In this document: piece by piece, positions 39,980 to 60,455 of the stretch
Layout of the letters: each line of letters starts with the position of its first letter
Numbering within the stretch: the first letter of the stretch is position 1
Source: Candidatus Moraniibacteriota bacterium
GTDB lineage: Bacteria; Patescibacteriota; Minisyncoccia; Moranbacterales; UBA2206
Length of the DNA stretch: 64,000 nt
NCBI GenBank assembly: GCA_030645735.1
Contig: JAUSNP010000003.1
Coordinates: forward strand, 27,608 to 91,607
Reading direction: 5' to 3'
Position numbers and translations under genes: made by a program
Notes under the pieces: generated by a model
Seen by the model: the letters and a program-made list of their open reading frames with translations, nothing else
What the model was told of the DNA's origin: nothing
Database searches by the model: none

Positions 39980-40828
39980 CTAATTTTTCAATTTTTTTAC
40001 AGTTTTATTTTTTAGCAAAAAATTCCTGCCAGTCACCACACTTTTGCCAGTTTTTTCTTCCAAGGCTAGTCTCGCGTCTTTGGCGATTTTGCCACCTTTT
40101 TTCGCTGGGATTTTATTTTCTTCCAAACCTCTCGCCTCATCTGTTTCCGCAATTCTTCTGGTAGAAATTTCAGCCAGTGCCGTGAAAATCAATTCTTCTT
40201 CACTCATGTGATCACGCAAATTTTGTGTTTTCAGGCCTTTCAAATTTTTGTGATCTTTGACTGATAAATCTGTCCATTCTTCATGAATGATGTTGGTCAG
40301 GATCGCAAACTCTTCGCCTCTTTTCACTTCATTGCCACTCCAATAATCCGTCAGCTTATTTCTCACTTCCTGCCCCATCATTCTTTGTTGAATCCATGCC
40401 GCACTGCGTCCTTGTTTTTGCCAATATTCTCTGGAACGATTGAGGGCTATTTCCGGATCAGTCATTTCCTGCATTCTTTCATAACCAACTTTCGCTAACC
40501 ACAATTTTACTGGTTCGGCTTTTGGACTTGGTACCGATTGAATCAATCGCAATAAAGTTTCTACATTAGCTGCATCAGTCTCATAATATTTACCATCAGT
40601 AGCCATAAATTTCAGTTGGTGACAATTTGTCACCGACTCATTTCCCTCTTTCCCCAATCTCTCCTTAAGTTTATTCCAGTATTTTCTAGCTGTTTTATAA
40701 TCATTCTGTTGAATTAAGGCTTGCATAATATCAACCACCGAAAAATACCAAACCTCAGTTTTCTCGTCATAATGCCGACGAATCTTAAAGTTTTCAAAAA
40801 TAGCCAGTGAGTTTTGATTTTTTTCCAT
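39980..40828 (-). CDS. DinD-like protein with Bro-N-type N-terminus (paralogue 3 of 3)
   Basis: FENFKIRRHYDEKTEVWYFSVVDIMQAL and ...QNLRDHMSEEELIFTALAE...KKGGKIAKDAR. Confidence 0.65.
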   Translation of the reverse strand: MEKNQNSLAIFENFKIRRHYDEKTEVWYFSVVDIMQALIQQNDYKTARKYWNKLKERLGKEGNESVTNCHQLKFMATDGKYYETDAANVETLLRLIQSVPSPKAEPVKLWLAKVGYERMQEMTDPEIALNRSREYWQKQGRSAAWIQQRMMGQEVRNKLTDYWSGNEVKRGEEFAILTNIIHEEWTDLSVKDHKNLKGLKTQNLRDHMSEEELIFTALAEISTRRIAETDEARGLEENKIPAKKGGKIAKDARLALEEKTGKSVVTGRNFLLKNKTVKKLKN

Positions 40829-43248: not shown

Positions 43249-43776
43249 TTATTTAAAGCATATTTTTCTTTGATTCTTATCCAGCCATTCAAATTTTATT
43301 TTGAGTGCATCTTTCGGTAATATTTTCTTGACTCGTTCTGACCATTCAACAATGACGATGTTTTTATCATCTGCCACAATTTCCTCCCAACCCAAATTCA
43401 ACAAGTCCTTTTCATCAATCCGGTACGCGTCAATGTGATAAATGCCGTGGATCGTGGATCGTGGATCGTGGATCGCATCGCTTTTTAATTTGCGTTTTGC
43501 GTTCCACGTTTTGCGTTCCACGTTTTGCGTTATGCGATATTCTTTCATTATCAAAAAAGTCGGACTTGTATATGGTCCTTTGACTTTCAATCCCTTCAAC
43601 AATCCTTGCGTGAATGTCGTTTTGCCAGCGCCCAAATCACCTTCCATACACAAAACTTCTCCGCCTTGTAATTCCAAAGCCAATAACTCTCCAAGTTTTT
43701 GGGTTTCTTTGAAATTGTTAGTTATAAATTCTTTACTCATTATTCCCATTACAACGCACAAATCCTCTAAAGTCAA
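43249..43776 (-). CDS. tsaE: tRNA threonylcarbamoyladenosine biosynthesis protein TsaE, with an in-frame repeat insertion
   Basis: P-loop GDLGAGKTTFTQGL and ...YHIDAYRIDE. The 43441..43545 block of gtggatc and cacgttttgcgtt units encodes extra residues. Confidence 0.8.
   Translation of the reverse strand: MTLEDLCVVMGIMSKEFITNNFKETQKLGELLALELQGGEVLCMEGDLGAGKTTFTQGLLKGLKVKGPYTSPTFLIMKEYRITQNVERKTWNAKRKLKSDAIHDPRSTIHGIYHIDAYRIDEKDLLNLGWEEIVADDKNIVIVEWSERVKKILPKDALKIKFEWLDKNQRKICFK
43441..43545. repeat. (gtggatc)x4 plus a cacgttttgcgtt-unit repeat block inside tsaE, related to the block at 57975..58080
   Basis: cgtggatcgtggatcgtggatcgtggatcgcatcgc...ttgcgttttgcgttccacgttttgcgttccacgttttgcgttatgcgatattc. 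Confidence 0.8.
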
Positions 43777-44009: not shown

Positions 44010-45140
44010 ATGAGCCTTGAACCGCAGGAACAATTCAAGAATTTCGTGGAAAAATCTAAGGAGGTTTTGATTTTGATTCCCGAAAATCCCAGTGGCGATG
44101 CAGTCGGCAGTGCTTGGGCGCTCTATTTTTTCCTGCAGAAAAAAGAAATCAATGCCACCATTGCCTTCTCCAATCATTTGTCTGATAAATATTCTTTTCT
44201 GCCCAAACCTGAGCAAATTCTGACAGAAATTTCTGGGGCGCGCGATTTTGTGCTTTCCTTCAACACGACTTATAATAAAATTTCTAATGTCCGCACGGAA
44301 GAATCTGAAGGTAAATTGGAGATTCACCTGACTCCGGAAAAGGGAACCCTCAATCCCAAGGACTTCTCCTTTATCCTAGCCAAGTTCAAATATGACTTGA
44401 TGGTGATTATCGACAGTCCAGACTTGGAAGGTTTGGGCAAGATTTATGAAAAAAATCCGGATCTTTTTTTCGAAGTGCCCATCATCAACATTGATCATCG
44501 CAGTACTAATGATAATTTTGGCCAAATCAATCTAGTAGATATCACCGCTTCATCTTGCAGTGAAATCTTGAGCATTGCCTTGGAACATATTGATTATAAT
44601 TTGATGGACAAAACGATTGCTGATTGTTTGTTGACTGGCATCATCAGTGCTACGGAAAGTTTCCAAAAGAAAAACACCACTCCCAAGGCCTTGTTGGCTG
44701 CCGCCACTCTGATGGACAAAGGCGCAGACCAGCAAACTATCATTCGCTGGCTATATAAAACTCAACCATTGCATGTTTTGAAATTGTGGGGCCGCGCCAT
44801 GGCCAACTTGAATTGGGATGAGCAATCTAAACTTGTTTGGACCAATCTCGGTGTGGAGGATTTTGTGCAAAGCCGTTCCAACCCGACGGATGTTTTGATA
44901 ATTCTCGAGAAATTGCAAGAAAATTATAGCGAAGGCAAGATATTCATGGCACTTTACAATGACACACCAGCAACAACGATAGCCCTACTTAAATCAGTTG
45001 ACCAAGCGCTGTTGAAAAAAATCCAACCCTTTTTCAATGGCACCCTCAAACGCGATGTCCTAGAAATTAAATTGGAAGCTTCAATGTTGTTCGAAGCTGG
45101 AACGGATATTGCCAAAAAGATAAAAGAGATGGGCGCTTAA
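44010..45140 (+). CDS. DHH-DHHA1 family phosphoesterase (NrnA-like)
   Basis: N-terminal DHH-type metal site (PSGDAVGSAW) and the INIDHRSTND motif. C-terminal DHHA1-like region GIISATESFQKKNTTPKAL. Confidence 0.65.
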   Translation: MSLEPQEQFKNFVEKSKEVLILIPENPSGDAVGSAWALYFFLQKKEINATIAFSNHLSDKYSFLPKPEQILTEISGARDFVLSFNTTYNKISNVRTEESEGKLEIHLTPEKGTLNPKDFSFILAKFKYDLMVIIDSPDLEGLGKIYEKNPDLFFEVPIINIDHRSTNDNFGQINLVDITASSCSEILSIALEHIDYNLMDKTIADCLLTGIISATESFQKKNTTPKALLAAATLMDKGADQQTIIRWLYKTQPLHVLKLWGRAMANLNWDEQSKLVWTNLGVEDFVQSRSNPTDVLIILEKLQENYSEGKIFMALYNDTPATTIALLKSVDQALLKKIQPFFNGTLKRDVLEIKLEASMLFEAGTDIAKKIKEMGA

Positions 45141-45259
45141 AAATCCGCTTTCTTTCAGACACACAGTGATCTTTGGACACTGCGTGTCTTTTTTATTTTA
45201 TAAAAGTAGCAAAATTACCTAAAATACAGTAGAATAGAGTTATAAAATAAAAAAATACT

Positions 45260-48200
45260 ATGCCAAAAATACTTCACAAAAAATCATCCGCGGAACCCTC
45301 CAAGGCTGATATGCAAAAACAAGAAGATACCCAAAAAGTTTTGTCCAAAATGCGTCATCAATCTGAAGAAGAACGCGCTTCAGCTTTTGCGGCGGTCATT
45401 GGCATGACTTACATTGATACCAATTTAATTCCCATCGAAACTGACGCTATCAAAACCCTCTCTGAAGAAGAAGCTCACCAATTCAATGTAGCCGTCATCG
45501 CTAAGACTGGTAAAAAAATAACTGTCATCTCGACTGATCCAACCGTGCCAGCAACCTTGGAGTTTTTGAAAAACTTGCGCGAATCCAATGGCTGGGAACT
45601 GAATGTTTTTGTGGTTTCTCAATATAACCTGGAGAAGGTTTTGGACCGCTACAAAAAAATTGTTTTCACTGACATTCTTTCACAACTCAGTGTCAGCCTA
45701 ACAGGCGAAGATTTGCAGAAATTTGATGAGTATTTGAAAGATCTGACCACCCTCAAACAAAGAATCAATGAATTGCCTACTACCCAAATTTTGAATGTAA
45801 TGATGGGTGGGGCCTACAAACTAGGCGCCAGTGACATCCACATCGAACCACAAGAAAAAGAATTTCGTTTGCGCTATCGTATCGATGGAATTTTGCACGA
45901 TGTCGCTTTTTTACCATTGAATGTTTTCAAAACAGTGGTAAATCGTGTGAAAATGATGTCCGATATGAAACTCAATTTGAGAGACATTGCGCAAGATGGA
46001 ACTTTTGAAGTAAATATTGAAGACAAAAAAATTGCCATTCGTGTTTCAATTATTCCTGGTAGCTATGGCGAAAGCATCGTAATGAGAATTCTTGACCCAG
46101 CGTCTATCCAAGTAGCGGTAGAAAATTTGGGTTTACGCGGATTGGCTTATGAAATTATTCAGAAACAAATCAATGCTCCTAGCGGCATGATTCTAACTAC
46201 TGGCCCGACTGGTTCCGGGAAAACCACCACCCTCTATGCTATTGTCAACAAACTCAATGATCCCGAAACAAAAATCATCACTATTGAAGACCCAATTGAA
46301 TATGAAGTGACTGGCATCTCCCAAACTCAAGTTGAAAAATCCCGCGGTTATGATTTTGCCTCAGGCCTTCGAGCTATCGTCCGTCAAGATCCAGATGTAA
46401 TTCTCGTGGGAGAAATTCGCGATGAAGAGACCGTGGACATTGCCATTAACTCGGCATTAACTGGTCACCTAGTGTTATCTACGATTCACACCAACAGTGC
46501 CATCGCCACCATTGCGCGAATGATTGAAATGGGCGTCAAGCCAACTTTGATTGCGCCAGCTACCAATGCCTTCATTGGACAACGTTTGGTGCGCAAATTG
46601 TGTGATTGCAAAGAAGAATACACCCCTGCCAAAGAATCACTAGAATCTTTGAAAAAAATTATTTCTATTATTTCACCAAAATCAAAATTGGAAGTGCCCA
46701 AGGAAATCAAAACGCTCTTCCGACCCAAGGGTTGTCCAAAATGCAACAACCTTGGCTACAAAGGACGCATGGGAATTTTTGAAGTTTTCACCATCAATGA
46801 AGAAATTGAAAAATTGATTGTCAATTTTGCTTCCGAAGCGGAAATCACTATGGCCGCCTTGGAAGCTGGTATGATCACGATGTTGCAAGACGGAATTTTG
46901 AAATCTCTAGAAGGCATCACTTCGATTGAAGAGGTGAAACGCGCTACAGGTGAAGGCGATTTTTTGCAAAATATTTATGAAAAATTGATGGCTTCCACTT
47001 TGGGTCACGGTGTTTTGATTGAACCAATTCATTATTCAACCGCTCTAGAAAATATCAAAGACTTTCAAAAATTGCAGACAGTCATCAGCACTTCTGCCAC
47101 CAAAGATATCAATAAAATAGTTTTTGCAGCTGCTTCAATTTTGCGCACGGGTGACATTCACATTGAACCAGGACCTGATAATGTCAAAGTTCGCTTCCGT
47201 ATTGATGGAATTTTGCAAACTGTTGTCACCTATCCGCTCAATGAATATCCAAATATCTTGGGTGAAATAAAAATCCTGTCTGGTGTCAAAACCGAAGTGC
47301 GAGAAGGTGTGATTGATAGTCGTTTCAGCATCAAGTTTGACGAGGAAATTCCTGATATCAAAGAAAGGTCAGTTGATGTGCGTGTTTCCATCATTCTGGG
47401 TGGCTATGGTGAGACTGTGGTAATGCGTCTTTTGAGCAAAGCTTCGCAAGAATTGGATATCAACAAATTAGGCATCAGTGAACAAAACAAGAAAAAAATC
47501 ATGCATGAAATTTCCAAACCCAATGGCGTGTTTTTGAACACTGGCCCAACTGGCTCTGGAAAAACTACTACATTATATTCAATTGTAAATATCCTCAATA
47601 AACCGGAAGTCAAAATCATCACTGTTGAAGATCCAATTGAATATCAAATAGAAGGTATCTTGCAAACTCCAACCAATGACAAAGAAGGCTACACTTTTGC
47701 CACCGCTTTGCGCGCACTTCTGCGTCAAAACCCTGACATTATGATGATTGGTGAAATCCGTGATGATGAGACCGCTCAAGTGGCCGTACAAGCCGCTTTG
47801 ACTGGTCATATGGTGCTTTCCACCATTCACACCAACAATGCCGCTGGCGCGGTCCAGAGAATGCTCAACATGGGTGTTTCACCATCCGACATCGCCTCAG
47901 CCGTCAACGCTTTTATGGCACAACGCTTAGTGCGCAAATTGTGTGACTGCAAAGAAAAAATTTCTTTGACTACTGAAGACAAAGAAAAGATTGAGCGAGT
48001 CTTGAAAACTATTTCTCCCAAAGCTGGTGTAGAAATTCCCGCCATTGGTGAAATTTATACTCACAAAGGTTGCGAAAAATGCAACAACATCGGCTACAAA
48101 GGCCGAACCACTATCAGCGAAATCTTTGTCATCGATCGCGACATCCAAGAACTCATCAATCGTGGCGCTATCACTTCCGAACTGGCCGACAAAGCCACTG

Positions 48201-48295
48201 AAAATGGCATGATCACCATGGCACAAGATGGAGTTTTGAAAGTGTTGAATGGTGAGACGACGTTGGAAGAAGTGGAGAGAGTTACCGAGATCTAG
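45260..48295 (+). CDS. Tandem-duplicated GspE/PilB-type secretion ATPase. Two complete ATPase cores are fused in one 1011-aa polypeptide.
   Basis: Walker A appears twice (TGPTGSGKTTTLYAIVNKL and TGPTGSGKTTTLYSIVNIL). Asp box / Walker B appears twice (DPDVILVGEIRDEET and NPDIMMIGEIRDDET). His box appears twice (HLVLSTIHTN and HMVLSTIHTN). The tetracysteine motif appears twice (CDCKE...GCPKCNNLGYKGR and CDCKE...GCEKCNNIGYKGR). There is an N-terminal T2SSE_N-like domain. Confidence 0.85.
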   Translation: MPKILHKKSSAEPSKADMQKQEDTQKVLSKMRHQSEEERASAFAAVIGMTYIDTNLIPIETDAIKTLSEEEAHQFNVAVIAKTGKKITVISTDPTVPATLEFLKNLRESNGWELNVFVVSQYNLEKVLDRYKKIVFTDILSQLSVSLTGEDLQKFDEYLKDLTTLKQRINELPTTQILNVMMGGAYKLGASDIHIEPQEKEFRLRYRIDGILHDVAFLPLNVFKTVVNRVKMMSDMKLNLRDIAQDGTFEVNIEDKKIAIRVSIIPGSYGESIVMRILDPASIQVAVENLGLRGLAYEIIQKQINAPSGMILTTGPTGSGKTTTLYAIVNKLNDPETKIITIEDPIEYEVTGISQTQVEKSRGYDFASGLRAIVRQDPDVILVGEIRDEETVDIAINSALTGHLVLSTIHTNSAIATIARMIEMGVKPTLIAPATNAFIGQRLVRKLCDCKEEYTPAKESLESLKKIISIISPKSKLEVPKEIKTLFRPKGCPKCNNLGYKGRMGIFEVFTINEEIEKLIVNFASEAEITMAALEAGMITMLQDGILKSLEGITSIEEVKRATGEGDFLQNIYEKLMASTLGHGVLIEPIHYSTALENIKDFQKLQTVISTSATKDINKIVFAAASILRTGDIHIEPGPDNVKVRFRIDGILQTVVTYPLNEYPNILGEIKILSGVKTEVREGVIDSRFSIKFDEEIPDIKERSVDVRVSIILGGYGETVVMRLLSKASQELDINKLGISEQNKKKIMHEISKPNGVFLNTGPTGSGKTTTLYSIVNILNKPEVKIITVEDPIEYQIEGILQTPTNDKEGYTFATALRALLRQNPDIMMIGEIRDDETAQVAVQAALTGHMVLSTIHTNNAAGAVQRMLNMGVSPSDIASAVNAFMAQRLVRKLCDCKEKISLTTEDKEKIERVLKTISPKAGVEIPAIGEIYTHKGCEKCNNIGYKGRTTISEIFVIDRDIQELINRGAITSELADKATENGMITMAQDGVLKVLNGETTLEEVERVTEI

Positions 48296-48315: not shown

Positions 48316-48433
48316 CCCTCTCCCTTAGGGAGAGGAGGTTCGCTTTTTCTCCTTCTCCCTCAAGGGAGAAGGTGCCCGAAGGGCGGATTCTGAACTTATT
48401 AACATTGTCATCCCGGGCTTGACCCGGGATCTA
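48316..48433. repeat. Cluster of four GC-rich hairpins (cctctccc-tta-gggagagg; ccttctccc-tcaa-gggagaagg; gccc-gaa-gggc; atcccggg-cttga-cccgggat)
   Basis: About 60% GC over about 120 bp, between the gspE fusion stop and the GIY-YIG start. The first two hairpins are variants of each other. Confidence 0.75.
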
Positions 48434-48439
48434 CTTTTT

Positions 48440-48751
48440 ATGCAACACCAATATTGTGTTTACATATTAACTAGCCAAACAAACCGAGTTTTGTATGTTG
48501 GTGTGACAAGTAACTTACCCAAAAGAATCTTCGAACACAAAAATAAATTGGCAGATGGTTTTACGAAAAAATACAATGTCGATAAATTGGTTTATTTTGA
48601 GCAAGGCGAGGATGTGAGTTCTGCCCTGCATAGAGAAAAACAATTGAAAAAATGGAAAAGGGAGTGGAAACTTGAATTGATCGAGAAGTCTAATCCTGAA
48701 TGGAAAGATTTGAGCGATACCTTAGTAGATTCCGGCTCAAGGCCGGAATGA
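48440..48751 (+). CDS. GIY-YIG nuclease-domain protein (small, UPF0213-like)
   Basis: YCVYILTSQTNRVLYVGVTSNLPKRIFEH with Y..Y..G and a downstream R/E (REKQLKKWKREWKLELIE). Start taken at ATG 48440; the track ORF starts at 48419. Confidence 0.7.
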   Translation: MQHQYCVYILTSQTNRVLYVGVTSNLPKRIFEHKNKLADGFTKKYNVDKLVYFEQGEDVSSALHREKQLKKWKREWKLELIEKSNPEWKDLSDTLVDSGSRPE

Positions 48752-48821
48752 CAAATCTTAGACAATTAAAAAACAGCGGCCCCTCCTAGGTCGCTGCTTT
48801 GCTTTCGCCGGCATTACCGAT

Positions 48822-49310
48822 TTAATTTTGAAAATTCACTGCCATCCCAAACATGGCATTTAGAGCCGCCTCCACATTCTTTTTGGGAACAACGATTAGG
48901 CTACCCGATTCATCTTCACCGAGCACCCTAACAAATGCATTGACATGAACCTTGTGAGATTCACTTCCAACTATGGGTTGGTAGCCATAAAAGAATGTGC
49001 CATCAAACCCGCTGGAAGCTATCACCATAAGGCCTTGCATCCTGTTGCTTGCTACGACCATATCGCCTGGCTGGACAGGATCAAGAACCTTCTCAACTTT
49101 TTTCAGAGTCTTCTCGATTCTGTTGGTCGTTGAGATTTTTTCTGGAGACCGCTGAGAAATGTTCATCAAAAGTACTACCACGCAACTGGCCAAAAGCGCA
49201 GCGACAATCAATAAATTTCTCTTAACTTTTCGTTCGTTCATGTCCCGCTCCTCTAAATTTGTAAAGAAGTTGTCTTTAATTTCACCACTCAGTGAAATCA
49301 GTGGTTTCAT
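48822..49310 (-). CDS. Hypothetical membrane-anchored protein
   Basis: TM LLIVAALLASCVVVLLM followed by a soluble domain. No family assigned. Somewhat GC-richer. Confidence 0.45.
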   Translation of the reverse strand: MKPLISLSGEIKDNFFTNLEERDMNERKVKRNLLIVAALLASCVVVLLMNISQRSPEKISTTNRIEKTLKKVEKVLDPVQPGDMVVASNRMQGLMVIASSGFDGTFFYGYQPIVGSESHKVHVNAFVRVLGEDESGSLIVVPKKNVEAALNAMFGMAVNFQN

Positions 49311-51040: not shown

Positions 51041-51643
51041 ATGAGCCTAGGTTCAAATATCCATTTCAAAGGTCAGCGCGATGATGAGACAATCATCAGC
51101 GTCGTTCGTCGCCATTGGTTCAATATCTTGCAACAACTTTTTCTAGTTTTCATCATGGTGGCTTTTGTTTTCGGCAGTCTGACCTACCTGCCTCTGCTTT
51201 TCCCCATCCTCAACACATCCTCAGCGCATGATTTGTTTATATTCCTAACCAACTCCTTTGCGCTAGTAACTTGGATAATGTTTTTCTTGATTTGGATTGA
51301 TTATTATTTTGATGTTTGGATTATCACGACACGCCGGATTGTGAATATCGAACAGAAAGGGCTTTTCATCCGCACTGTCAGTGAATTGGAATTTGATAAA
51401 ATCCAAGATATAACCACAGAAGTTAAAGGTATTATTCCAACCTTTCTCAATTTTGGTGATGTATTCGTACAAACCGCCGCCGAAAAAGACCGCTTCACTT
51501 TCAGACAAATTCCCAATCCTTATGCTGTCAAAGACCTCTTGATGAATCTTGAAGAAAAGGGCGAGAAATCCGAAGCCACACAAAGAGCTCAGGAAGGAGC
51601 TCAAGCACTGGGCAATGTTTTGAAAGATGAAAACTTGCACTAA
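51041..51643 (+). CDS. Bacterial PH-domain (bPH_2, YdbS/YdbT-like) membrane protein
   Basis: Two TM helices, then ...WIITTRRIVNIEQKGLFIRTVSELEFDKIQDITTEVKGIIPTFLNFGDVFVQTAAEKDRFTFRQIPNP. Confidence 0.6.
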   Translation: MSLGSNIHFKGQRDDETIISVVRRHWFNILQQLFLVFIMVAFVFGSLTYLPLLFPILNTSSAHDLFIFLTNSFALVTWIMFFLIWIDYYFDVWIITTRRIVNIEQKGLFIRTVSELEFDKIQDITTEVKGIIPTFLNFGDVFVQTAAEKDRFTFRQIPNPYAVKDLLMNLEEKGEKSEATQRAQEGAQALGNVLKDENLH

Positions 51644-51688
51644 AAACATTTCTCACAATTTAGCTATCCAAGCAAATTTTATTTTAGG

Positions 51689-53671
51689 GTGAAAAATAAA
51701 AACAAAATCAGCTCACTGAAAAAATCGGTTGTAATACTTTTATTTTTCTCCTGCCTCCTGGCAGGTTTTTTTGTACTTGAAAACGATGCCATTGCCGAAG
51801 ACAAAACGATTATTATTAGCGCTGTGCAAACATCAGGACAAACTGCCAATGATGATTTCATAGAGCTATACAACAATACTTGTGCTGATATTGAACTGAC
51901 AAATTGGAAAATCAAACGCAGAACTGCCAGTGGTTCTGAATCAATCATTGGCTCACTAAAAAATACTATTCCTGGCAAAGGCTACTTTCTCTGGAAAAAT
52001 ATCAGCGCCAACTCAGTTGGCAATCCAGATTATGCTACAACTTCTTATTCACTTTCTGATAATTATAGCATTGCTCTTTTTGATTCAACCAACGCGCAAG
52101 TTGATGCATTGACTTGGGGCAACAATCTTTTGCCTTTTGCTGATACCCCATATTATCCTTTGAATTTGAAAGCCTTCGAAACTATTTTACGCAATCTTTC
52201 TGATGAAACCTCTATCCAACTAAATTATGCTCCCAAAAATTCCTCTGTACTCAAAACGGAAGAATTGTCATCTTGCACAATTGAAGATCCAGCACCAGAC
52301 CCAATCGACCCGTCTCCGGCAGAAATTTATTCTGACCAATTGCGCCTCAACGAAATCTTGCCCAATCCAAAAGATGATGAAACCACTGGTGAATTTATCG
52401 AGCTCTACAATGCGGAAGATTTTCCTATTGATTTGGAAAACTGGGGTCTGCAAGATTCTTCCGACACCCAATTTATTTTCCCGGCCGGCTATATTATTGG
52501 TGCTAATGATTATCTAACAATCTACCGTGACATATTTAGATTTGCGCTCAACAATTCTGGACAAGAAGATATTTATCTACTCAATCCCAATGGGGACACG
52601 GTGTCTGAAATAACTTATGAAAACGCCAAAGAAAATGTTTCCTTTAGTTTTGATGAAGCGGATTGGAAATGGACCAAATATTTGACCCCTGACAAAGCCA
52701 ATGAATTTGATGCTGTTTCTCAAATCAAAGCTGAGCATATCAAGGAAGGTTTTGTGGTTTTTCCAATCGAATTTTCACTCGATCCAGATTTTGCTGATTT
52801 TTCTAAAGTAGTTTGGAATTTTGGAGACACCAAAAAAAGTTATCTGAAAAATCCCAAACACACCTATCTCAAAAAGGGCAATTATACTGTAACTGTTTCC
52901 ACTTCTGGAGAAGCTGAAGACACCTCCGATTCATTTGTTTTGAAAATCAAAGATTATCCGCGAGAAAAAGTGGAGATAGTTGGACTCATCCCCAATCCAC
53001 TGGGGACAGACGCGGAGCAAGAATGGATTGAAATCAAAAACAATGAAAAAAATGTGGTGAATCTGAAAGGCTGGAAGCTGGCCACTGGCAAAAAAGTTCT
53101 CGTCAATCACCCAATCAAAGATGATTTTGAAATACAACCAGGCGAAACTGCCCAACTCACACGAGAGCAGGCCTTTTTCACCCTACACAACAAAGCTATG
53201 ATTTTGGAACTGCGCTATCCGGATGGCAAAACTGCTGACCGTGTTTCTTACTCCAAAGAAACTATTGGCGATGATGAGCTATATTCCAAAGAATCTGGTC
53301 GCTGGACTTGGATTTCAGCCGAGGGTGACGAGAGAGCTGCTGAAGATATTTCTGAACCAATCGAAGCCCCTGTGCAAACTGAACCTGAGTCTGAGCCAGT
53401 TCCAGAAGAAGCACTCATAGAAATCGTAGAAGCTGTTCTAGAAGAATCCCCAGAAAACATGGGCAAATTCTCAGTCTCCAATGAGTGGCAAGCCAAGAGA
53501 AAAAATTGGCTAAACTATTTGGCCTATGGGTTGCCAACAAATACTTCGCCGAAATTAGCCTCTGAAAACATCGCTCTGCAAGAAAAATCACAACCCGCAA
53601 CCTCAAATCAAAAAGTTTCCACCAAAAACATTTTCTTGCAAATAAACTCCTTTCTGAATAGTGTTTTGTAA
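51689..53671 (+). CDS. Exported protein with three lamin-tail domains (LTD) and one PKD-like domain
   Basis: Signal/TM anchor, then LTD-like blocks IIISAVQTSGQTANDDFIELYNNTCADIELTNWKIKRR, LNEILPNPKDDETTGEFIELYNAEDFPIDLENWGLQD and IVGLIPNPLGTDAEQEWIEIKNNEKNVVNLKGWKLATGKK. PKD-like WNFGDTKKSYLKNPKHTYLKKGNYTVTVS. Acidic Pro/Glu-rich C-terminal region. Confidence 0.7.
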   Translation: MKNKNKISSLKKSVVILLFFSCLLAGFFVLENDAIAEDKTIIISAVQTSGQTANDDFIELYNNTCADIELTNWKIKRRTASGSESIIGSLKNTIPGKGYFLWKNISANSVGNPDYATTSYSLSDNYSIALFDSTNAQVDALTWGNNLLPFADTPYYPLNLKAFETILRNLSDETSIQLNYAPKNSSVLKTEELSSCTIEDPAPDPIDPSPAEIYSDQLRLNEILPNPKDDETTGEFIELYNAEDFPIDLENWGLQDSSDTQFIFPAGYIIGANDYLTIYRDIFRFALNNSGQEDIYLLNPNGDTVSEITYENAKENVSFSFDEADWKWTKYLTPDKANEFDAVSQIKAEHIKEGFVVFPIEFSLDPDFADFSKVVWNFGDTKKSYLKNPKHTYLKKGNYTVTVSTSGEAEDTSDSFVLKIKDYPREKVEIVGLIPNPLGTDAEQEWIEIKNNEKNVVNLKGWKLATGKKVLVNHPIKDDFEIQPGETAQLTREQAFFTLHNKAMILELRYPDGKTADRVSYSKETIGDDELYSKESGRWTWISAEGDERAAEDISEPIEAPVQTEPESEPVPEEALIEIVEAVLEESPENMGKFSVSNEWQAKRKNWLNYLAYGLPTNTSPKLASENIALQEKSQPATSNQKVSTKNIFLQINSFLNSVL

Positions 53672-57318: not shown

Positions 57319-57975
57319 ATGGAATTAAACATTAGCCCAATAATTCATTTTTTTACTAACGAGGGCGTGCCAATCGAAACAATTATTTTACTTTTGATGT
57401 TACCAATCATCGCCACTTTCATCGCTTTCTTGCGACAAGTGGTTGGAATCAAGGCTTTCGGCATCTACACACCGCTTATTATAACCTTCGCTTTTTTGGC
57501 CACCAATGGCTTGCGCTATGGCGTAGCAATTTTTTTGGCGGTTATTTTTATCGGCATGCTTATGCGTTTTGTGATGAAGCCTTTTCGTTTGCTCTATCTG
57601 CCACGCGTAGCTATTATGCTCACCATTGTTTCCCTAACAATCTTAGTGATGCTAGTTTTAGGTGGCAATCAAAGACGCACGGGACTGGCATCAGTTTCTA
57701 TTTTTCCAATCTTGATTATGATTACACTCGTAGAAAAATTTGTAGCTGTGCAAATCGAGAAGGGCAACAAGACAGCTCTGATTTTGGCTTTTGAAACTTT
57801 GATCATTTCTATCTTCGGTTTCTACATCGCGAGTTGGAAACCACTTATTGAAATCCTGATTGGTTACCCATGGCTTATTCTATTGACTATTCCAATGAAT
57901 ATTGTAATCGGCAAATGGACAGGACTCCGCATCAGTGAATATTTCCGCTTCAGACACATAATCAAACAACTCTAA
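57319..57975 (+). CDS. Seven-TM membrane protein (resembles the 7TM module of 7TM-transglutaminase partners of ATP-grasp systems but lacks the soluble domain)
   Basis: Seven hydrophobic helices in 218 aa. First gene of the ATP-grasp operon. Confidence 0.55.
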   Translation: MELNISPIIHFFTNEGVPIETIILLLMLPIIATFIAFLRQVVGIKAFGIYTPLIITFAFLATNGLRYGVAIFLAVIFIGMLMRFVMKPFRLLYLPRVAIMLTIVSLTILVMLVLGGNQRRTGLASVSIFPILIMITLVEKFVAVQIEKGNKTALILAFETLIISIFGFYIASWKPLIEILIGYPWLILLTIPMNIVIGKWTGLRISEYFRFRHIIKQL

Positions 57976-58080
57976 TCGTGTAACGCAAAACGTGGATCGC
58001 AAAACGCACATCTCCATGACGCAAAGCAAAAAACTGCGTTATGCGATATGCGTTCTACGATTTGCGAATATTCTATGTTT
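57975..58080. repeat. Repeat block related to 43441..43545 (inverted copy aacgcaaaacgtggatcgcaaaacgc plus direct tgcgttatgcgatat), at the boundary between the 7TM gene and the ATP-grasp fusion gene
   Basis: gcgttttgcgatccacgttttgcgtt (the reverse complement here) matches gcgttttgcgttccacgttttgcgtt in tsaE. tgcgttatgcgatat is shared in direct orientation. Confidence 0.7.
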
Positions 58081-59478
58081 GAATTTTTCAAAAACAGTCG
58101 CAAGCTTTTAGGCATGAACTCAAGAAATCTTGAGTTCATTCGGCCGTTCAATCGCGCCAAGGCCAAACGATTGGCGGACAACAAAATGCGCAGTAAGCGT
58201 GTGCTGAAAAAGAATGGCATTTCTGTTTCCAAACTGATTGCCACCATCAAAACAATTGAGGACTTGGAAAATTTTGATTGGCAAAAGTTGCCCAATAGCT
58301 TTGCCTTGAAACCTAATCGCGGTTTTGGTGGTGAAGGAATTGTTGTCGTCTATGGCAAGAAAAAGGGCCGCGATGATGCCTGGGTCAAAGCTGATCGCTC
58401 CCTCATCACCATTGAAGATTTAGTTAGTCACATTCGCAACATTTTGGACGGTTCTTTTTCACTTTCCAACACGCCTGACTTTGCTTTTTTTGAAGAACGC
58501 TTACAACTTTTGAAGTTATTCAAGCCCTATTCATATAAAGGTATTCCTGATATTCGCGTGATTGTTTTCAACAAAATTCCTGTGATGGCCATGTTGCGCT
58601 TGCCTACTAAAGAATCCGGTGGCAAGGCCAACTTGCATCAAGGCGCTATCGGGGTGGGTATCGACTTAGCTACTGGCGTAACAACCACCGCTATTCAAAA
58701 CAATCGCCTGATTGAAAAAATTCCTGGTACGCAACTTTCTACCAGTGGTTTGCGTATTCCCTATTGGAAGGATATTTTATTTTTAGCCACCAAGGCGCAA
58801 GAAATTTCTGGGCTAGGTTATCTGGGGGCTGACATCGCCATCGACAAAGAAAACGGTCCAACCATTTTGGAACTCAATGCCCGCCCAGGACTCGCCATTC
58901 AAGTGGCTAATTTGGCAGGTCTTGCGGAAAGACTCAAAAGAGTTTCTGGGATCAAGATAAAAACCGTCGAAAAAGGCGTACGCGTGGGCATGGATCTTTT
59001 TGGTGGAGAAATTGAAGAAGAACTAGAGGAAATTTCTGGTCGGAAAGTCATTGGCACAGTGGAAAAAGTGAAAATTACTGGTAAAAATGGCAAGGAAGTT
59101 GAGGTTGAAGCTAGAATAGATACTGGCGCCGGCATATCCGCCATCAGCAAAGAATTGGCCATCGAACTAGGCTTTGACGAAGCAGTTCGTTATTGGGAGG
59201 AATTTAATCTGGACAAGGTTCTCTCTGAAGAAGAAATACAAAAACTTAGCGCCAACAAAACTTGGAAGGAATTAGAAAAACATCCTGATATTGTGGGCGT
59301 CGCAAAAACATATTCCGCTCATGGCGCAACTTATCGAATAGAAATCAAAGTTTCATTATTAATAGATAATCTGGCTGTCCTATCAAAACTGTCCATTTCC
59401 AACAGAAGTGGTCTTGCCTATCCAATTCTTATCGGCCGCAGAGATCTGAATAAGTTTTTAATAGATGTAAAAAAATGA
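58048..59478 (+). CDS. ATP-grasp ligase (alpha-L-glutamate-ligase-like / ATPgrasp_ST type) fused to a C-terminal retropepsin-like aspartyl-protease (DUF785 / 'ATP-dependent zinc protease'-type) domain
   Basis: N-terminal GMNSRNLEFIRPFNRAKAKRLADNKMRSKRVLKKNGISVSKL, then an ATP-grasp core (GGEGIVVVYGKK..., ...LGYLGADIAIDKENGPTILELNARPGL). C-terminal EVEARIDTGAGISAISKELAIELGF carries the D-T-G-A signature. The true start is probably downstream (58078 or 58114), because the annotated start lies inside a repeat element. Confidence 0.6.
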   Translation: MRSTICEYSMFEFFKNSRKLLGMNSRNLEFIRPFNRAKAKRLADNKMRSKRVLKKNGISVSKLIATIKTIEDLENFDWQKLPNSFALKPNRGFGGEGIVVVYGKKKGRDDAWVKADRSLITIEDLVSHIRNILDGSFSLSNTPDFAFFEERLQLLKLFKPYSYKGIPDIRVIVFNKIPVMAMLRLPTKESGGKANLHQGAIGVGIDLATGVTTTAIQNNRLIEKIPGTQLSTSGLRIPYWKDILFLATKAQEISGLGYLGADIAIDKENGPTILELNARPGLAIQVANLAGLAERLKRVSGIKIKTVEKGVRVGMDLFGGEIEEELEEISGRKVIGTVEKVKITGKNGKEVEVEARIDTGAGISAISKELAIELGFDEAVRYWEEFNLDKVLSEEEIQKLSANKTWKELEKHPDIVGVAKTYSAHGATYRIEIKVSLLIDNLAVLSKLSISNRSGLAYPILIGRRDLNKFLIDVKK

Positions 59479-60452
59479 TAAAAAATCCGCCACTAATTAA
59501 AAAGATTGTCGAAGAAATGGGTGGGACTTTTGAAGAGGTCGTTCCCGAACGCGGTTGCTATTATATTCATGTGAAAGGCAAGGTTTTTATGATTACCCGA
59601 AAATTTAGAATTGCTAAAAATTTCATTAGTGTTGCTGGAGCAACTGCTTACAAAGATTTAACCTATACTTTGCTCAAGCGGCAGTCCCTTCCTACGCCTA
59701 CTACAGTTTTTTTCTTTAGAAAAAATTTCAAACCAGCAGACATTAAAAACAAATTGTTGGATATGCAATTTCCAATAATTATTAAGGATTCCGCTGGTTC
59801 AAATAGCCAGGGTATTTTTCCATATATAAAAAATTTAAAGGAAGCTCAATCTATTATAAACAAAGAGATTTTGAATTTCAGATCACTCATCGCCCAAGAA
59901 ATGATTTTTGGCAAAGAATATCGCATTTTAATTTTGGACGACAAAGTTATCGGGGCATTAGAAATGATCCCGCCACGAGTTTTTGGTGATGGAAAATCTA
60001 CAATTGCGCAACTAATCGCAGAAAAGCAAAAACATACTCATCGCAAGACGCCTATCGATCCGGCTCTAAAAATAATCCTGCAAGAACAAGGCTTTTCCCT
60101 TGATTCTGTTCTAGCTGCTAATGAGATTGTCTCAATCAAAAAAAGTTCTTCTCTGGCAGAGGGCGGGGAAACTCGCGATGTCACCGAACTAGTTAATAAA
60201 AAAATTGTTGCTATTTGCGCGCAAGCGTCTGACGCTATTGGCGATTATCTAGCTGGTATTGATATAATCTGCGAAGACATTTCAAAAAATCCAACCACGC
60301 AAACATTCGGCATTTTAGAAATAAACGGCAAGCCTGATATTTATATTCACTACAACCCAACTTTTGGAAAATCTAGAAATGTCATAAAGGACATCATAAA
60401 TTTTATTCTGAAATTGAGCACCACACAAAAAAGTGCCCTATCAAAAAAATAA
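59475..60452 (+). CDS. ATP-grasp ligase, cyanophycin-synthetase-N-terminal-like
   Basis: EYRILILDDKVIGALEMIPPRVFGDGKSTIAQLIAEKQ resembles the CphA/Mur-associated ATP-grasp core. C-terminal GIDIICEDI...GILEINGKPDI. The start overlaps the upstream stop (ATGA). Confidence 0.55.
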   Translation: MIKNPPLIKKIVEEMGGTFEEVVPERGCYYIHVKGKVFMITRKFRIAKNFISVAGATAYKDLTYTLLKRQSLPTPTTVFFFRKNFKPADIKNKLLDMQFPIIIKDSAGSNSQGIFPYIKNLKEAQSIINKEILNFRSLIAQEMIFGKEYRILILDDKVIGALEMIPPRVFGDGKSTIAQLIAEKQKHTHRKTPIDPALKIILQEQGFSLDSVLAANEIVSIKKSSSLAEGGETRDVTELVNKKIVAICAQASDAIGDYLAGIDIICEDISKNPTTQTFGILEINGKPDIYIHYNPTFGKSRNVIKDIINFILKLSTTQKSALSKK

Positions 60453-60455
60453 CCT

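What the first reader, a model, noticed from the sequence alone, without database searches (positions are those of the whole stretch)
45260..48295. Covalently duplicated GspE/PilB secretion ATPase (two complete ATPase cores in one 1011-aa protein)
What the sequence shows: every hallmark of the type II/IV secretion ATPase core appears twice in one ORF.
- Walker A: TGPTGSGKTTTLY twice.
- Asp box / Walker B: DPDVILVGEIRDEET and NPDIMMIGEIRDDET.
- His box: H(L/M)VLSTIHTN twice.
- C-terminal tetracysteine: CDCKE...GC(P/E)KCNN(L/I)GYKGR twice.
- A second N2-like segment (TGDIHIEPGPDNVKVRFRIDGILQ) separates the two cores.

The two halves are diverged, roughly 50% identical, so this is an old fusion and not an assembly artefact.

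Established knowledge: GspE/PilB/PilT work as homohexamers with alternating conformations.

Inference: a fused dimer would give a trimer-of-dimers with built-in asymmetry. No pilC, pilM or pilin genes lie adjacent.
Basis: seen in the sequence. Interest (0 to 1): 0.5.

Follow-up and report, generated by a model that had tools for sequence, protein, structure and literature searches.

The report
Tandem two-core PilB pilus-motor ATPase
A candidate-phyla-radiation (Moranbacteria) genome encodes a type IV pilus assembly ATPase with its whole motor core duplicated in one chain; both copies keep their catalytic residues, the form is conserved across Parcubacteria, and it has apparently never been described.

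Summary
ORF 45260-48295 (+) encodes a 1011-aa protein with the layout N1 domain, core A (N2+CTD), 30-aa linker, core B (N2+CTD). The cores are 47% identical and every hallmark motif occurs twice, 447 residues apart.

It is not an artefact:
- More than 200 protein clusters at 90% identity, and about 14 at 50% identity, share the architecture. All named ones come from Moranbacteria, Parcubacteria or Paceibacterota MAGs.
- 26 complete genes were found in GTDB species genomes.

Both cores are PilB/GspE-type, and neither is PilT-like. Both are equally conserved, and all catalytic residues and the four zinc cysteines are invariant in each.

The gene sits at a conserved housekeeping locus (PolA...TsaE | DHH -> ATPase -> RuvB). 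In related lineages that locus holds a single-core PilB, so the duplication arose in place. Core A keeps ancestral residues and core B carries derived ones. I also found independent duplications and a three-core variant.

No pil genes lie nearby, apart from one relative with a pilin immediately downstream.

A trimer forming an A3B3 six-core ring is the most plausible assembly, but it is inferred only. Two AlphaFold runs did not resolve how the cores are arranged.

Verdict: real, and a new variant of a known kind. No paper describing it was found.

The parts
45197..45225 (+). Promoter-like site (TTTATA-17-TAAAAT) in the 119-bp gap upstream of the ATPase gene. It follows a terminator-like hairpin at 45175-45189 that ends the DHH gene.
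   Evidence: Consensus scan only, which found fewer sites than the shuffled controls. This is weak evidence and merely suggests the ATPase may have its own promoter.
45260..48295 (+). Complete gene for the 1011-aa tandem PilB/GspE-type ATPase, stop codon included.
   Evidence: ORF listing. The exact protein is in NCBI as 'MAG: GspE/PulE family protein [Candidatus Moranbacteria bacterium]' on a 233-kb contig.
45260..45727 (+). N1 domain (aa 1-156), N1E/MshEN-like. It is present once only, ahead of core A.
   Evidence: Pfam MshEN at aa 48-131 scores 19.8 bits, below the 23.1 cut-off. TIGR02538 PilB N-terminal region, E = 8e-7. AF2 pLDDT is about 75-86. The c-di-GMP-binding MshEN motif is absent.
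45728..46954 (+). Core A (aa 157-565): N2A (aa 157-290) plus CTD_A (aa 291-565). It carries Walker A K321, Asp box E343/D344/E347, Walker B E385, His box H403/H410 and Zn cysteines C448/C450/C492/C495.
   Evidence: NCBIfam scores GspE 467, PilB 450 and PilT 188 bits. The listed residues are invariant in 36 sequences. Mean identity to family members is 77%.
46949..47005 (+). Conserved connector helix (aa 564-582), G-E-G-D-F-L-x-x-I-Y-E-K-L-M-x-x-x-L-G, forming the first half of the inter-core linker.
   Evidence: G564, G566, L569, Y573 and L576 are 100% conserved; F568, K575 and M577 at least 96%; E574 and L581 95%; G582 90%, in 119 family sequences. A related 'AGDxxYIExLY' occurs in tandems with 38-47% identity. 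AF2 predicts a helix but with pLDDT below 50.
46955..47047 (+). Inter-core linker (aa 566-596). Its second half is variable.
   Evidence: Mean identity to family members is 53%, against 76-77% for the cores. GC3 is 0.27.
47048..48292 (+). Core B (aa 597-1011): N2B (aa 597-737) plus CTD_B (aa 738-1011). It carries Walker A K768, Asp box E790/D791/E794, Walker B E832, His box H850/H857 and Zn cysteines C895/C897/C938/C941.
   Evidence: NCBIfam scores GspE 425, PilB 409 and PilT 169 bits. The listed residues are invariant. Mean identity to family members is 76%. It carries derived 'B-type' residues at 19 positions that are fixed but different from core A.
48410..48430 (+). Intrinsic-terminator-like hairpin (8-bp stem, 6 GC pairs, T-rich tail) 115 bp after the stop codon.
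   Evidence: Consensus scan.
44010..45140 (+). DHH-family phosphoesterase gene (376 aa), the conserved upstream neighbour on the same strand.
   Evidence: Pfam DHH and a weak NrnA-like match. It lies upstream of the ATPase in nearly all relatives whose contig reaches that far. It also precedes the single-core orthologues (38-39% identity, E 1e-66 to 1e-85).
43249..43776 (-). tsaE, the divergently oriented anchor of the conserved locus.
   Evidence: Pfam TsaE. Synteny shown.

Best explanation
The gene encodes the assembly-type (PilB/GspE-class) motor ATPase of a type IV filament machine in a Moranbacteria (Parcubacteria, CPR) cell.

SHOWN:
- The N2+CTD motor core was duplicated inside the gene, giving N1-coreA-linker-coreB.
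- The duplication arose in place at a conserved PolA/TsaE | DHH -> PilB -> RuvB locus. In related lineages that locus still holds a single-core PilB.
- Both cores are under equal purifying selection and retain every ATP-binding and hydrolysis residue and the zinc module.
- Core A keeps the ancestral, single-core-like sequence state. Core B carries a set of derived, fixed substitutions.

INFERRED:
- Three chains assemble into one six-core ring with strictly alternating A and B positions (A3B3, exact C3 symmetry), equivalent to the PilB/GspE homohexamer.
- Both core types hydrolyse ATP, as the rotary cycle of these motors needs all six sites.
- Only three N1 anchor domains are present per ring.
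- The hard-wired A/B alternation would match the alternating Cyto1/Cyto2 ring modelled for a trimeric PilC/GspF platform. N2A and N2B could then each specialise on one platform domain.
For: Architecture and reality. More than 200 clusters of about 1005-1060 aa. About 14 tandem clusters among 1.84 billion representatives. 26 complete two-core ORFs in GTDB species genomes.

Class: each core alone scores GspE/PilB at 409-467 bits against PilT at 169-188. The closest solved structures are Geobacter PilB, Thermus PilF and Vibrio GspE, with TM 0.85-0.88 per core.

Both cores active: the Walker A Lys, Asp box, Walker B Glu, both His-box histidines, the N2 arginines and four Cys are invariant in both cores in the close family. 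The catalytic residues are also invariant in tandems only 38-47% identical; there the four Cys are invariant or at least 90% conserved, because P0126 core B has lost them. Core A and core B are 77% and 76% conserved.

In-situ origin: single-core P0412 and P0469 lie at the same DHH/TsaE/RuvB locus. They are closer to core A (52-53%) than to core B (45-46%).

One shared ring:
- A three-core orthologue exists at the same locus (P0002). Two and three are both divisors of six.
- Its middle core is an A/B mosaic, as unequal crossing-over would produce.
- The connector helix is conserved.
- Concatenation arose independently several times: P0129, P0130 and P0138.
- A published AF2-multimer model has a PulF trimer presenting an alternating Cyto1/Cyto2 ring. 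Each domain binds one N2D of a PulE hexamer at 6:3 stoichiometry, and TadB/TadC is proposed as a trimer of heterodimers (PMC10790770).

Link to pili: one relative (L031) has a classical prepilin gene immediately downstream. T4P components are widespread in CPR (PMC6744442).
Against: - The oligomeric state was not tested. AF2 of the full chain gives pTM 0.43. AF2 of the CTD_A-linker-N2B segment gives pTM 0.48, with the linker below pLDDT 50. No defined inter-core packing is therefore predicted.
- No PilC, PilM, PilN/O, PilD, PilT or pilin gene lies in the 64-kb window, or within 10 kb in 37 of 38 related loci. The partner machine is unseen.
- I could not establish whether the same genomes also carry a separate pil-operon PilB.
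- The three-core variant is a single observation: one contig, one sequence.
- The monophyly of B cores has weak NJ bootstrap support, 27 overall and 60-66 for subclades.
Confidence: 0.6

Rival explanations
1. Two-tier or double-ring assembly. Six chains associate, core A forms one homotypic hexameric ring and core B a second one, stacked or side by side. This would resemble type II AAA+ proteins (p97, ClpB) or the multi-ATPase EccC, which I cite from my own knowledge.
For: The 30-aa linker is long enough to allow it. AF2 gives no defined A-B packing. B cores form their own sequence type with fixed differences, which could equally reflect a separate ring.
Against: No PilB/GspE/PilT-family structure shows stacked rings; every PDB match covers a single core. 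A three-core orthologue at the same locus would then need three rings. Recently duplicated tandems, such as P0130 with 71% identical cores, would start out as interchangeable subunits of one ring.
Confidence: 0.13
2. The protein is a ring ATPase of the PilB fold but is not the pilus assembly motor. As a DHH-linked orphan at a DNA-repair and housekeeping locus, it could serve another process, such as DNA or nucleotide uptake or some other substrate translocation. A separate operon-encoded PilB would then build the pili.
For: No pil genes lie in the window or in 37 of 38 flanks. The DHH -> PilB pair is conserved across single-core and tandem lineages. Another single-core CPR PilB (P0164) sits beside a pilin gene, showing that pilin-linked PilB genes exist in related bacteria.
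Against: Both cores keep the complete PilB/GspE signature, including the Zn module and N1 domain. One relative has a prepilin gene directly downstream. DHH is separated from the ATPase by 2-5 kb in several genomes (L012, L031, L033, L036), and P0130's locus lacks DHH altogether. In this window a terminator-like hairpin and promoter-like site lie between DHH and the ATPase. Together these argue for synteny rather than an obligate operon. Orphan motor ATPase genes are common in T4P systems (own knowledge).
Confidence: 0.17
3. One core is a catalytically dead regulatory or scaffold pseudo-ATPase.
For: Core B carries derived substitutions next to motifs: D377->N824 before Walker B, and Q357->P804. 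In the unrelated non-CPR tandem P0138, the first core has lost the Walker A lysine.
Against: In this family the Walker A Lys, Asp box, Walker B Glu, His box and Arg residues are invariant in both cores across 36 close sequences and 12 distant ones. Conservation of the two cores is equal.
Confidence: 0.04
4. Fusion of an extension motor (PilB-like) with a retraction motor (PilT-like), giving a bifunctional chain.
For: None beyond the presence of two cores.
Against: Each core scores GspE/PilB at 409-467 bits against PilT/PilU at 169-188 bits, below that model's 319 cut-off. Both carry the tetracysteine module typical of PilB/GspE. In the tree neither core groups away from the PilB-type proteins sampled.
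Confidence: 0.01
5. Assembly or annotation artefact: two adjacent genes joined by a frameshift or a lost stop, or a repeat mis-assembly.
For: One GTDB relative has an in-frame TAA inside core B (L037), and one long-read MAG has a fragmented gene (L041).
Against: The same uninterrupted architecture occurs in more than 200 clusters from independent samples and assemblers, and in 26 complete GTDB ORFs. The identical protein was found on a second, independent Logan contig. Nucleotide identity between the cores is only 57%. The connector helix is conserved as protein.
Confidence: 0.01

Closest known systems
PilB, the type IVa pilus assembly ATPase (Geobacter metallireducens and G. sulfurreducens; PDB 5TSG, 5TSH, 6OLJ, 5ZFR)
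   Same: Best sequence matches in the PDB, E about 1e-109, and best fold matches, TM 0.85-0.88 per core at 42-44% identity. It shares the N1-N2-CTD order, all ATPase motifs and the Zn tetracysteine.
   Different: PilB has one N2+CTD core per chain and forms a homohexamer. Here two cores are covalently joined by a conserved helix, the N1 domain occurs once per two cores, and the two cores have diverged to 47% identity with fixed A/B differences.
GspE/EpsE, the type II secretion ATPase (Vibrio; PDB 1P9R, 4KSR, 4KSS, 4PHT)
   Same: It is the top NCBIfam model for each core, TIGR02533 at 467 and 425 bits. Domain order and Zn module are the same.
   Different: Each single core scores below the equivalog cut-off of 630. 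The organism is a CPR bacterium, a group for which microscopy suggests no Gram-negative envelope and in which the PilQ secretin was not found (PMC6744442), so a T2SS is unlikely. No GspF or GspL genes lie nearby.
Thermus thermophilus PilF (PDB 6F8L, 5IT5, 5OIU), a PilB with internally repeated domains
   Same: It is a PilB-type motor whose chain was enlarged by internal duplication.
   Different: As I recall it, PilF repeats the N-terminal GSPII/N1-type domains and not the ATPase core. It still has one ATPase core per chain; one search shows a single matched stretch.
Platform proteins PilC/GspF (internal Cyto-TM duplication, modelled as a trimer) and TadB/TadC (proposed trimer of heterodimers)
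   Same: The same logic of building a six-fold ring from three chains that each hold two diverged repeats (PMC10790770). This is the presumed partner of the ATPase.
   Different: It is a different protein family, a membrane protein. The correspondence with the tandem ATPase is my inference.
Two co-operating extension motors, PilB and TfpB, in Acinetobacter baylyi (PMC8213720)
   Same: It is a precedent for two diverged PilB-type paralogues acting on one pilus system (title and abstract).
   Different: They are separate genes and proteins. The paper's text does not mention mixed hexamers; one search found no such terms.
P0138: a T2SSF-T2SSE-T2SSE fusion from a non-CPR MAG (GCA_964384625.1)
   Same: It also has two PilB-type cores in one chain, and they are each other's closest relatives.
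   Different: It arose independently. It carries a PilC-like (T2SSF) N-terminus, and its first core has lost the Walker A lysine (GSGTTT), so it is probably a degenerate core.

Membership tests
PilB/GspE-class type IV filament assembly ATPases (Pfam T2SSE PF00437; TIGR02538/TIGR02533) | Walker A, Asp box, Walker B and His box of the PilT/VirB11-like secretion ATPases | tested here: met
   All four motifs are present twice and invariant in both cores. Pfam T2SSE scores 754 bits in two stretches.
PilB/GspE-class type IV filament assembly ATPases (Pfam T2SSE PF00437; TIGR02538/TIGR02533) | N2 domain plus RecA-like CTD fold | tested here: met
   The AF2 model (pLDDT 75.9) matches PilB, PilF and GspE chains at TM 0.82-0.89 normalised to the target.
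PilB/GspE-class type IV filament assembly ATPases (Pfam T2SSE PF00437; TIGR02538/TIGR02533) | C-terminal tetracysteine zinc module, present in PilB/GspE and absent in PilT (the PilT absence is my own knowledge) | tested here: met
   C448/C450/C492/C495 and C895/C897/C938/C941 are invariant in the close family.
PilB/GspE-class type IV filament assembly ATPases (Pfam T2SSE PF00437; TIGR02538/TIGR02533) | N-terminal N1E/MshEN-type domain | tested here: inconclusive
   Pfam MshEN scores 19.8 bits, below the 23.1 cut-off. The PilB model matches aa 5-134 at E = 8e-7. The domain is present once, not once per core.
PilB/GspE-class type IV filament assembly ATPases (Pfam T2SSE PF00437; TIGR02538/TIGR02533) | Score above the curated equivalog cut-off | tested here: inconclusive
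   The full chain scores 891 (GspE, cut-off 630) and 882 (PilB, cut-off 676), but only by summing two cores. Each core alone scores 409-467, below the cut-off.
PilB/GspE-class type IV filament assembly ATPases (Pfam T2SSE PF00437; TIGR02538/TIGR02533) | Genomic association with pilC/gspF, pilM and pilins | tested here: not met
   None in the 64-kb window. None within 10 kb in 37 of 38 related loci; one prepilin gene lies downstream in L031. The rest of the genome could not be examined.
PilB/GspE-class type IV filament assembly ATPases (Pfam T2SSE PF00437; TIGR02538/TIGR02533) | Homohexamer of single-core chains | not testable with these tools
   There are two cores per chain, so the canonical stoichiometry cannot apply. 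The oligomeric state is unresolved by AF2.
PilT/PilU retraction ATPases (TIGR01420) | Score above the family cut-off of 319.1 | tested here: not met
   The cores score 188 and 169 bits.
MshE-type c-di-GMP-binding ATPases | The 24-residue MshEN c-di-GMP motif RLGxx(L/V/I)(L/V/I)xxG(L/V/I)(L/V/I)xxxxLxxxLxxQ, recalled from memory | tested here: not met
   Neither the regex nor a relaxed form found a match anywhere in the protein.
Stacked double-ring ATPases (type II AAA+-like organisation) | Each tandem ATPase domain forms its own homotypic ring | not testable with these tools
   No multimer prediction was available. The indirect arguments against it are the three-core variant and recent duplicates.

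The most novel reading that the evidence does not exclude
Parcubacteria have replaced the homohexameric PilB motor with a hard-wired concatemer. A trimer of two-core chains (A3B3) has alternating N2A and N2B domains that have co-specialised with the Cyto1 and Cyto2 domains of a trimeric PilC platform. Concatenation is under recurrent selection: there is one ancient duplication, at least two or three independent ones, and a three-core form that would give an exactly C2-symmetric dimer. These natural 2x and 3x concatemers would be ready-made reagents. Position-specific mutants could test whether these motors run with C2 or C3 symmetry and how many active sites they need.
Probability: 0.4. Interest if true: 0.65.

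Novelty: new variant of a known kind. Interest (0 to 1): 0.5.

Why it matters
PilB/GspE/PilT motors are studied as homohexamers, which raises two difficulties. Individual ring positions cannot be mutated separately. The operating symmetry is also debated: C2 versus the C3 and C6 crystal forms (PMC6858323, abstract seen).

A natural covalent dimer of cores, and a rare natural trimer, fix which core sits at which ring position. Walker A or Walker B mutations in core A only or core B only become possible without engineering concatemers.

The architecture also fits, and could test, the recent proposal that the platform protein is a trimer. That trimer is modelled as presenting six alternating cytoplasmic domains to the six ATPase N2 domains (PMC10790770).

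For CPR biology, it defines a clade-wide, DHH-linked PilB variant in organisms whose type IV pili are thought to be central to their episymbiotic lifestyle (PMC6744442; PMC9894109).

Tried and rejected
- **AF2 of the full chain** (36-sequence MSA): the domains fold, but pTM is 0.43, so the arrangement of the cores is unresolved.
- **AF2 of CTD_A-linker-N2B** (17-sequence MSA), testing for an intramolecular 'packing unit': pTM 0.48 and linker pLDDT below 50, so inconclusive. No coordinates or PAE are returned, so contacts could not be inspected.
- **Extension plus retraction fusion:** rejected.
- **Degenerate second core:** rejected.
- **Artefact:** rejected.
- **c-di-GMP-binding MshEN motif:** absent.
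- **Canonical PilB in the same genomes:** I compared contig lengths in the single-core hit list with those of tandem-bearing contigs. There was no overlap, which is uninformative either way.
- **Profile search aimed at divergent tandems**: it returned mostly Moranbacteria-type tandems again. Direct context look-ups were more useful.
- **Literature:** five full-text searches and targeted reading found no description of a tandem-core PilB/GspE.
- **First NJ bootstrap run:** timed out and was redone with my own distance code. Deep nodes are weakly supported.
- **dN/dS between cores:** not attempted, because synonymous sites are saturated (third-position identity 40%).


Full report
**Observation**

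The window contains one long ORF at 45260-48295 on the + strand, 1011 codons with an ATG start. Its product carries each hallmark of the PilT/VirB11-like secretion ATPases twice:
- Walker A GPTGSGKT at aa 315 and 762.
- GEIRD (Walker B end) at aa 384 and 831.
- His box STIHTN at aa 407 and 854.
- CDCKE at aa 448 and 895, and KCNN at aa 494 and 940.

The offset is a constant 447 residues (446 for KCNN). Aligning the N-terminal 580 residues against the rest gives 47% identity over 414 residues, E = 4e-137. Pfam reports two T2SSE stretches and a sub-threshold MshEN/N1 domain at aa 48-131.

The layout is therefore N1 (aa 1-156), core A (N2A+CTD_A, aa 157-565), linker (aa 566-596), core B (N2B+CTD_B, aa 597-1011).

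**Not an artefact**

- The identical protein is deposited as 'GspE/PulE family protein [Candidatus Moranbacteria bacterium]' on a 233-kb contig. It also occurs on an independent Logan contig.
- The best 120 hits of the first database search are all 1005-1055 aa and 66-84% identical, apart from one 1460-aa protein. A second search added about 80 further clusters of 1003-1057 aa.
- An exhaustive HMMER pass over 1.84 billion cluster representatives found about 14 tandem clusters at the 50% level (978-1018 aa, 38-52% identity). Single-core proteins of about 550 aa follow them in the ranking.
- Named members come from Moranbacteria/Moraniibacteriota, 'Parcubacteria group' (for example KKU82539.1 of GW2011_GWA2_47_8), Paceibacterota and 'Patescibacteria group'.
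- A junction-spanning query (end of core A, linker, start of core B) matched in full, or nearly so, in 34 GTDB species genomes. Of these, 26 carry a complete ORF with two Walker A and two His boxes. Most of the others are cut by contig ends. One has an in-frame TAA and one is fragmented.
- Loci that matched only part of that query all encode single-core proteins of 536-653 aa, from other CPR groups and other phyla.
- At the DNA level the two cores are 57% identical, with third codon positions at 40% and no long repeat.

**What the two cores are**

Scanned separately against NCBIfam:

| Core | GspE | PilB | PilT/PilU |
|---|---|---|---|
| A | 467 | 450 | 188 |
| B | 425 | 409 | 169 |

Both are assembly-type cores, and both carry the tetracysteine module. 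The idea that one half might be retraction-like is refuted.

Across 119 family members, core A averages 77% identity to the window protein and core B 76%. The linker averages 53% and N1 50%.

In a 36-sequence alignment the following are invariant in both cores:
- Walker A lysines K321 and K768.
- Asp boxes E343/D344/E347 and E790/D791/E794.
- Walker B glutamates E385 and E832.
- His-box histidines H403/H410 and H850/H857.
- N2 arginines R203/R205/R207 and R645/R647.
- All eight cysteines.

The catalytic set is also invariant in both cores among twelve tandems that are only 39-47% identical to each other. Neither core is a degenerate regulatory domain.

Nineteen aligned positions are at least 95% conserved within each core type but differ between them, for example Q357/P804, D377/N824 and S354/L801. 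This is a signature of sub-functionalisation, not decay.

**Origin**

The gene lies in a conserved housekeeping neighbourhood: PolA ... PPIase - TsaE(-) | DHH(+) -> ATPase(+) -> [variable] -> RuvB - bPH - LTD/PKD protein - YebC - RuvC - 7TM/ATP-grasp genes.

- The same order surrounds relatives at 72%, 69% and 52% identity. It also surrounds a 43%-identical tandem of the GW2011_GWA2_47_8 type and most of the 34 GTDB loci.
- The closest single-core PilBs (P0412, 563 aa; P0469, 560 aa, on a 1.14-Mb chromosome) occupy the same position: PolA ... DHH -> PilB -> RuvB, and TsaE-BacA | DHH -> PilB. Their DHH neighbour is orthologous (38-39% identity, E 1e-66 to 1e-85).
- These single-core proteins are 52-53% identical to core A but only 45-46% to core B. 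At the 19 diagnostic positions, single-core proteins mostly carry A-type residues.

The tandem is therefore the positional orthologue of a DHH-linked single-core PilB. The N2+CTD unit was duplicated in place. Core A kept the ancestral state and core B acquired derived residues.

In a neighbour-joining tree of individual cores, most B cores group together. Support is weak: 27 overall and 60-66 for subclades. A cores intermingle with single-core CPR PilBs.

Three tandems have cores that are each other's sisters, implying independent duplications:
- P0130: bootstrap 100, cores 71% identical.
- P0129: bootstrap 100, cores 54% identical.
- P0138, from a non-CPR MAG: bootstrap 94.

In P0129 and P0130 both cores are A-type. 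P0130 sits at the same TsaE-flanked locus.

The 1460-aa protein P0002 has three complete cores at the orthologous locus. Its middle core is a mosaic of A-type and B-type residues, intermediate in identity (53% to A, 58% to C). This is what unequal crossing-over within a tandem would produce. It is a single observation.

**Context and expression**

No PilC, PilM, PilN/O, PilD, PilT or pilin gene is present in the 64-kb window. In 593 kb of flanking sequence from 38 related loci there is no second T2SSE gene. There is only one prepilin gene, but it lies immediately downstream of the tandem ATPase, in L031.

A single-core CPR PilB that carries part of the B-type signature (P0164) sits beside a pilin gene.

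In this window, consensus scans place a terminator-like hairpin and a promoter-like site between DHH and the ATPase, and a strong terminator-like hairpin 115 bp after the stop. In several relatives DHH is 2-5 kb away. The pair is a conserved neighbourhood and not demonstrably an operon. The N1 domain lacks the MshEN c-di-GMP motif.

**Structure**

AF2 folds all domains (mean pLDDT 75.9) but with pTM 0.43. Foldseek matches each core to Geobacter PilB, Thermus PilF and Vibrio GspE at TM 0.82-0.89. No solved chain, by sequence or by fold, covers more than one core.

I ran a second AF2 job on CTD_A-linker-N2B alone. It tested whether these pack as the rigid N2D(n)-CTD(n+1) unit known between subunits of PilB hexamers. 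The result was pTM 0.48 with a low-confidence linker, which is inconclusive.

The first half of the linker is nevertheless a highly conserved amphipathic helix, G-E-G-D-F-L-x-x-I-Y-E-K-L-M-x-x-x-L-G. A related motif occurs in the distant tandems. This argues for a structured connector.

**Most likely mechanism**

Shown: a conserved, catalytically intact, two-core PilB-class ATPase that arose by in-situ duplication.

Inferred: three chains form one six-core ring with fixed A-B-A-B-A-B order. The arguments are:
- Members of this family act as six-core rings (PDB entries).
- Freshly duplicated cores, as in P0130, must begin as interchangeable positions of one ring.
- Both 2x and 3x concatemers occur at the same locus, and both divide six.
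- Both core types stay catalytic, as a rotary cycle through all six sites requires.
- The published AF2-multimer model of PulE6:PulF3 has a platform trimer presenting alternating Cyto1 and Cyto2 domains, each bound to one ATPase N2 domain. That paper proposes TadB/TadC as a trimer of heterodimers (PMC10790770). A tandem ATPase would make the same alternation permanent on the motor side.

A trimer of two-core chains has exact C3 symmetry, and opposite ring positions are always one A and one B. A dimer of the three-core form would have exact C2 symmetry. Only three N1 domains would be present per ring.

The main rivals are a two-tier arrangement with homotypic rings, and a cellular role other than pilus assembly for this DHH-linked paralogue. 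Neither is excluded.

**Comparison with known systems, and novelty**

The protein works like, and each core is a member of, the PilB/GspE class. It fails the canonical definition in three respects: one core per chain, a homohexamer, and linkage to a pil or gsp operon.

Databases label it generically, as 'GspE/PulE family protein' or 'type IV pilus assembly protein PilB'. Five full-text searches and targeted reading found no paper describing a tandem-core PilB/GspE. The library searched does not include most subscription-journal papers, so absence is not proof.

I rate it a new variant of a known kind, of moderate interest. It is not a new kind of machine. It is a clade-wide natural concatemer of a much-studied motor, and it makes questions of symmetry and site usage experimentally approachable.

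**Limits**

- The oligomeric state, the partner proteins, and the presence of a second PilB in the same genome were not determined.
- Deep tree nodes are weakly supported.
- The promoter and terminator calls are consensus matches only.

Noticed in passing
L002:10001-14383 (protein P0002, JGI 3300022698): A 1460-aa orthologue at the same TsaE | DHH locus has three complete PilB cores. The middle core is an A/B mosaic, consistent with unequal crossing-over. It is a single sequence on a single contig.
   Followed up: partly
L007:10001-13144 (protein P0138, GCA_964384625.1): An independent fusion in a non-CPR MAG, whose neighbours include sulfatases, an ECF sigma factor and BatA/VWA genes. It combines a PilC-like T2SSF N-terminus with two PilB-type cores. 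The first core has lost the Walker A lysine (GPTGSGTTT).
   Followed up: partly
L006:3226-6213 (P0130); protein P0129: Two tandems whose cores are each other's closest relatives (71% and 54% identity) and are both 'A-type'. This implies independent, more recent duplications, or complete gene conversion, in the same protein family; for P0130 the gene also lies at the same TsaE-flanked locus (P0129's locus was not examined).
   Followed up: partly
window 44010-45140; L091:8707-9864; L092:8791-9930: A DHH-family phosphoesterase, distantly NrnA-like, lies directly upstream of this PilB lineage in both single-core and tandem forms and across deep divergence. Whether the link is functional is unknown.
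   Followed up: partly
L031:11602 onward (+): A classical type IV prepilin gene (…SRGFTLVELLVVIAILGILAAVV…) lies immediately downstream of the tandem ATPase in one GTDB MAG. It is the only pilin in 593 kb of flanks. That record is titled 'Candidatus Bathyarchaeia archaeon', evidently a mis-binned or mislabelled contig.
   Followed up: no
window 15724-16599, 20937-21779, 39980-40828 (all - strand): Three paralogous proteins of about 280-290 aa, each with an N-terminal Bro-N domain, are scattered through the window.
   Followed up: no
window 48419-49310: A GIY-YIG nuclease ORF (48419-48751, +) and an unannotated 162-aa ORF (48822-49310, -) occupy a variable slot between the ATPase and ruvB. In relatives that slot is empty or filled with other cargo, such as IS110 transposases in L004 and AbiEii in L005. 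The listed TTG start of the GIY-YIG ORF overlaps the terminator-like hairpin at 48410-48430, so the true start is probably the ATG at 48443.
   Followed up: no
window 57319-61379 (+): A cluster of a 7TM_transglut membrane protein followed by three ATP-grasp (RimK/ATPgrasp_ST) proteins. It is syntenic in distant Parcubacteria (L003, L005).
   Followed up: no
window 51041-53671 (+): A bPH_2 membrane protein followed by a 660-aa protein with lamin-tail (LTD) and PKD domains. The pair lies downstream of ruvB in most of the related loci examined.
   Followed up: no
L037:1187-1189; L041: One GTDB relative has an in-frame TAA inside core B where others encode Gln or Ser. Another, from the MAG MFD04408.bin.2.190, has the gene broken into pieces. 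These are possible pseudogenes or sequencing errors.
   Followed up: no
L015-L017, L021, L022, L025, L026, L030, L039 (record titles): Several GTDB MAG records carrying this Parcubacteria-type locus are titled 'uncultured Bdellovibrionales', and others 'Saccharibacteria'. The record names look unreliable for these bins.
   Followed up: no
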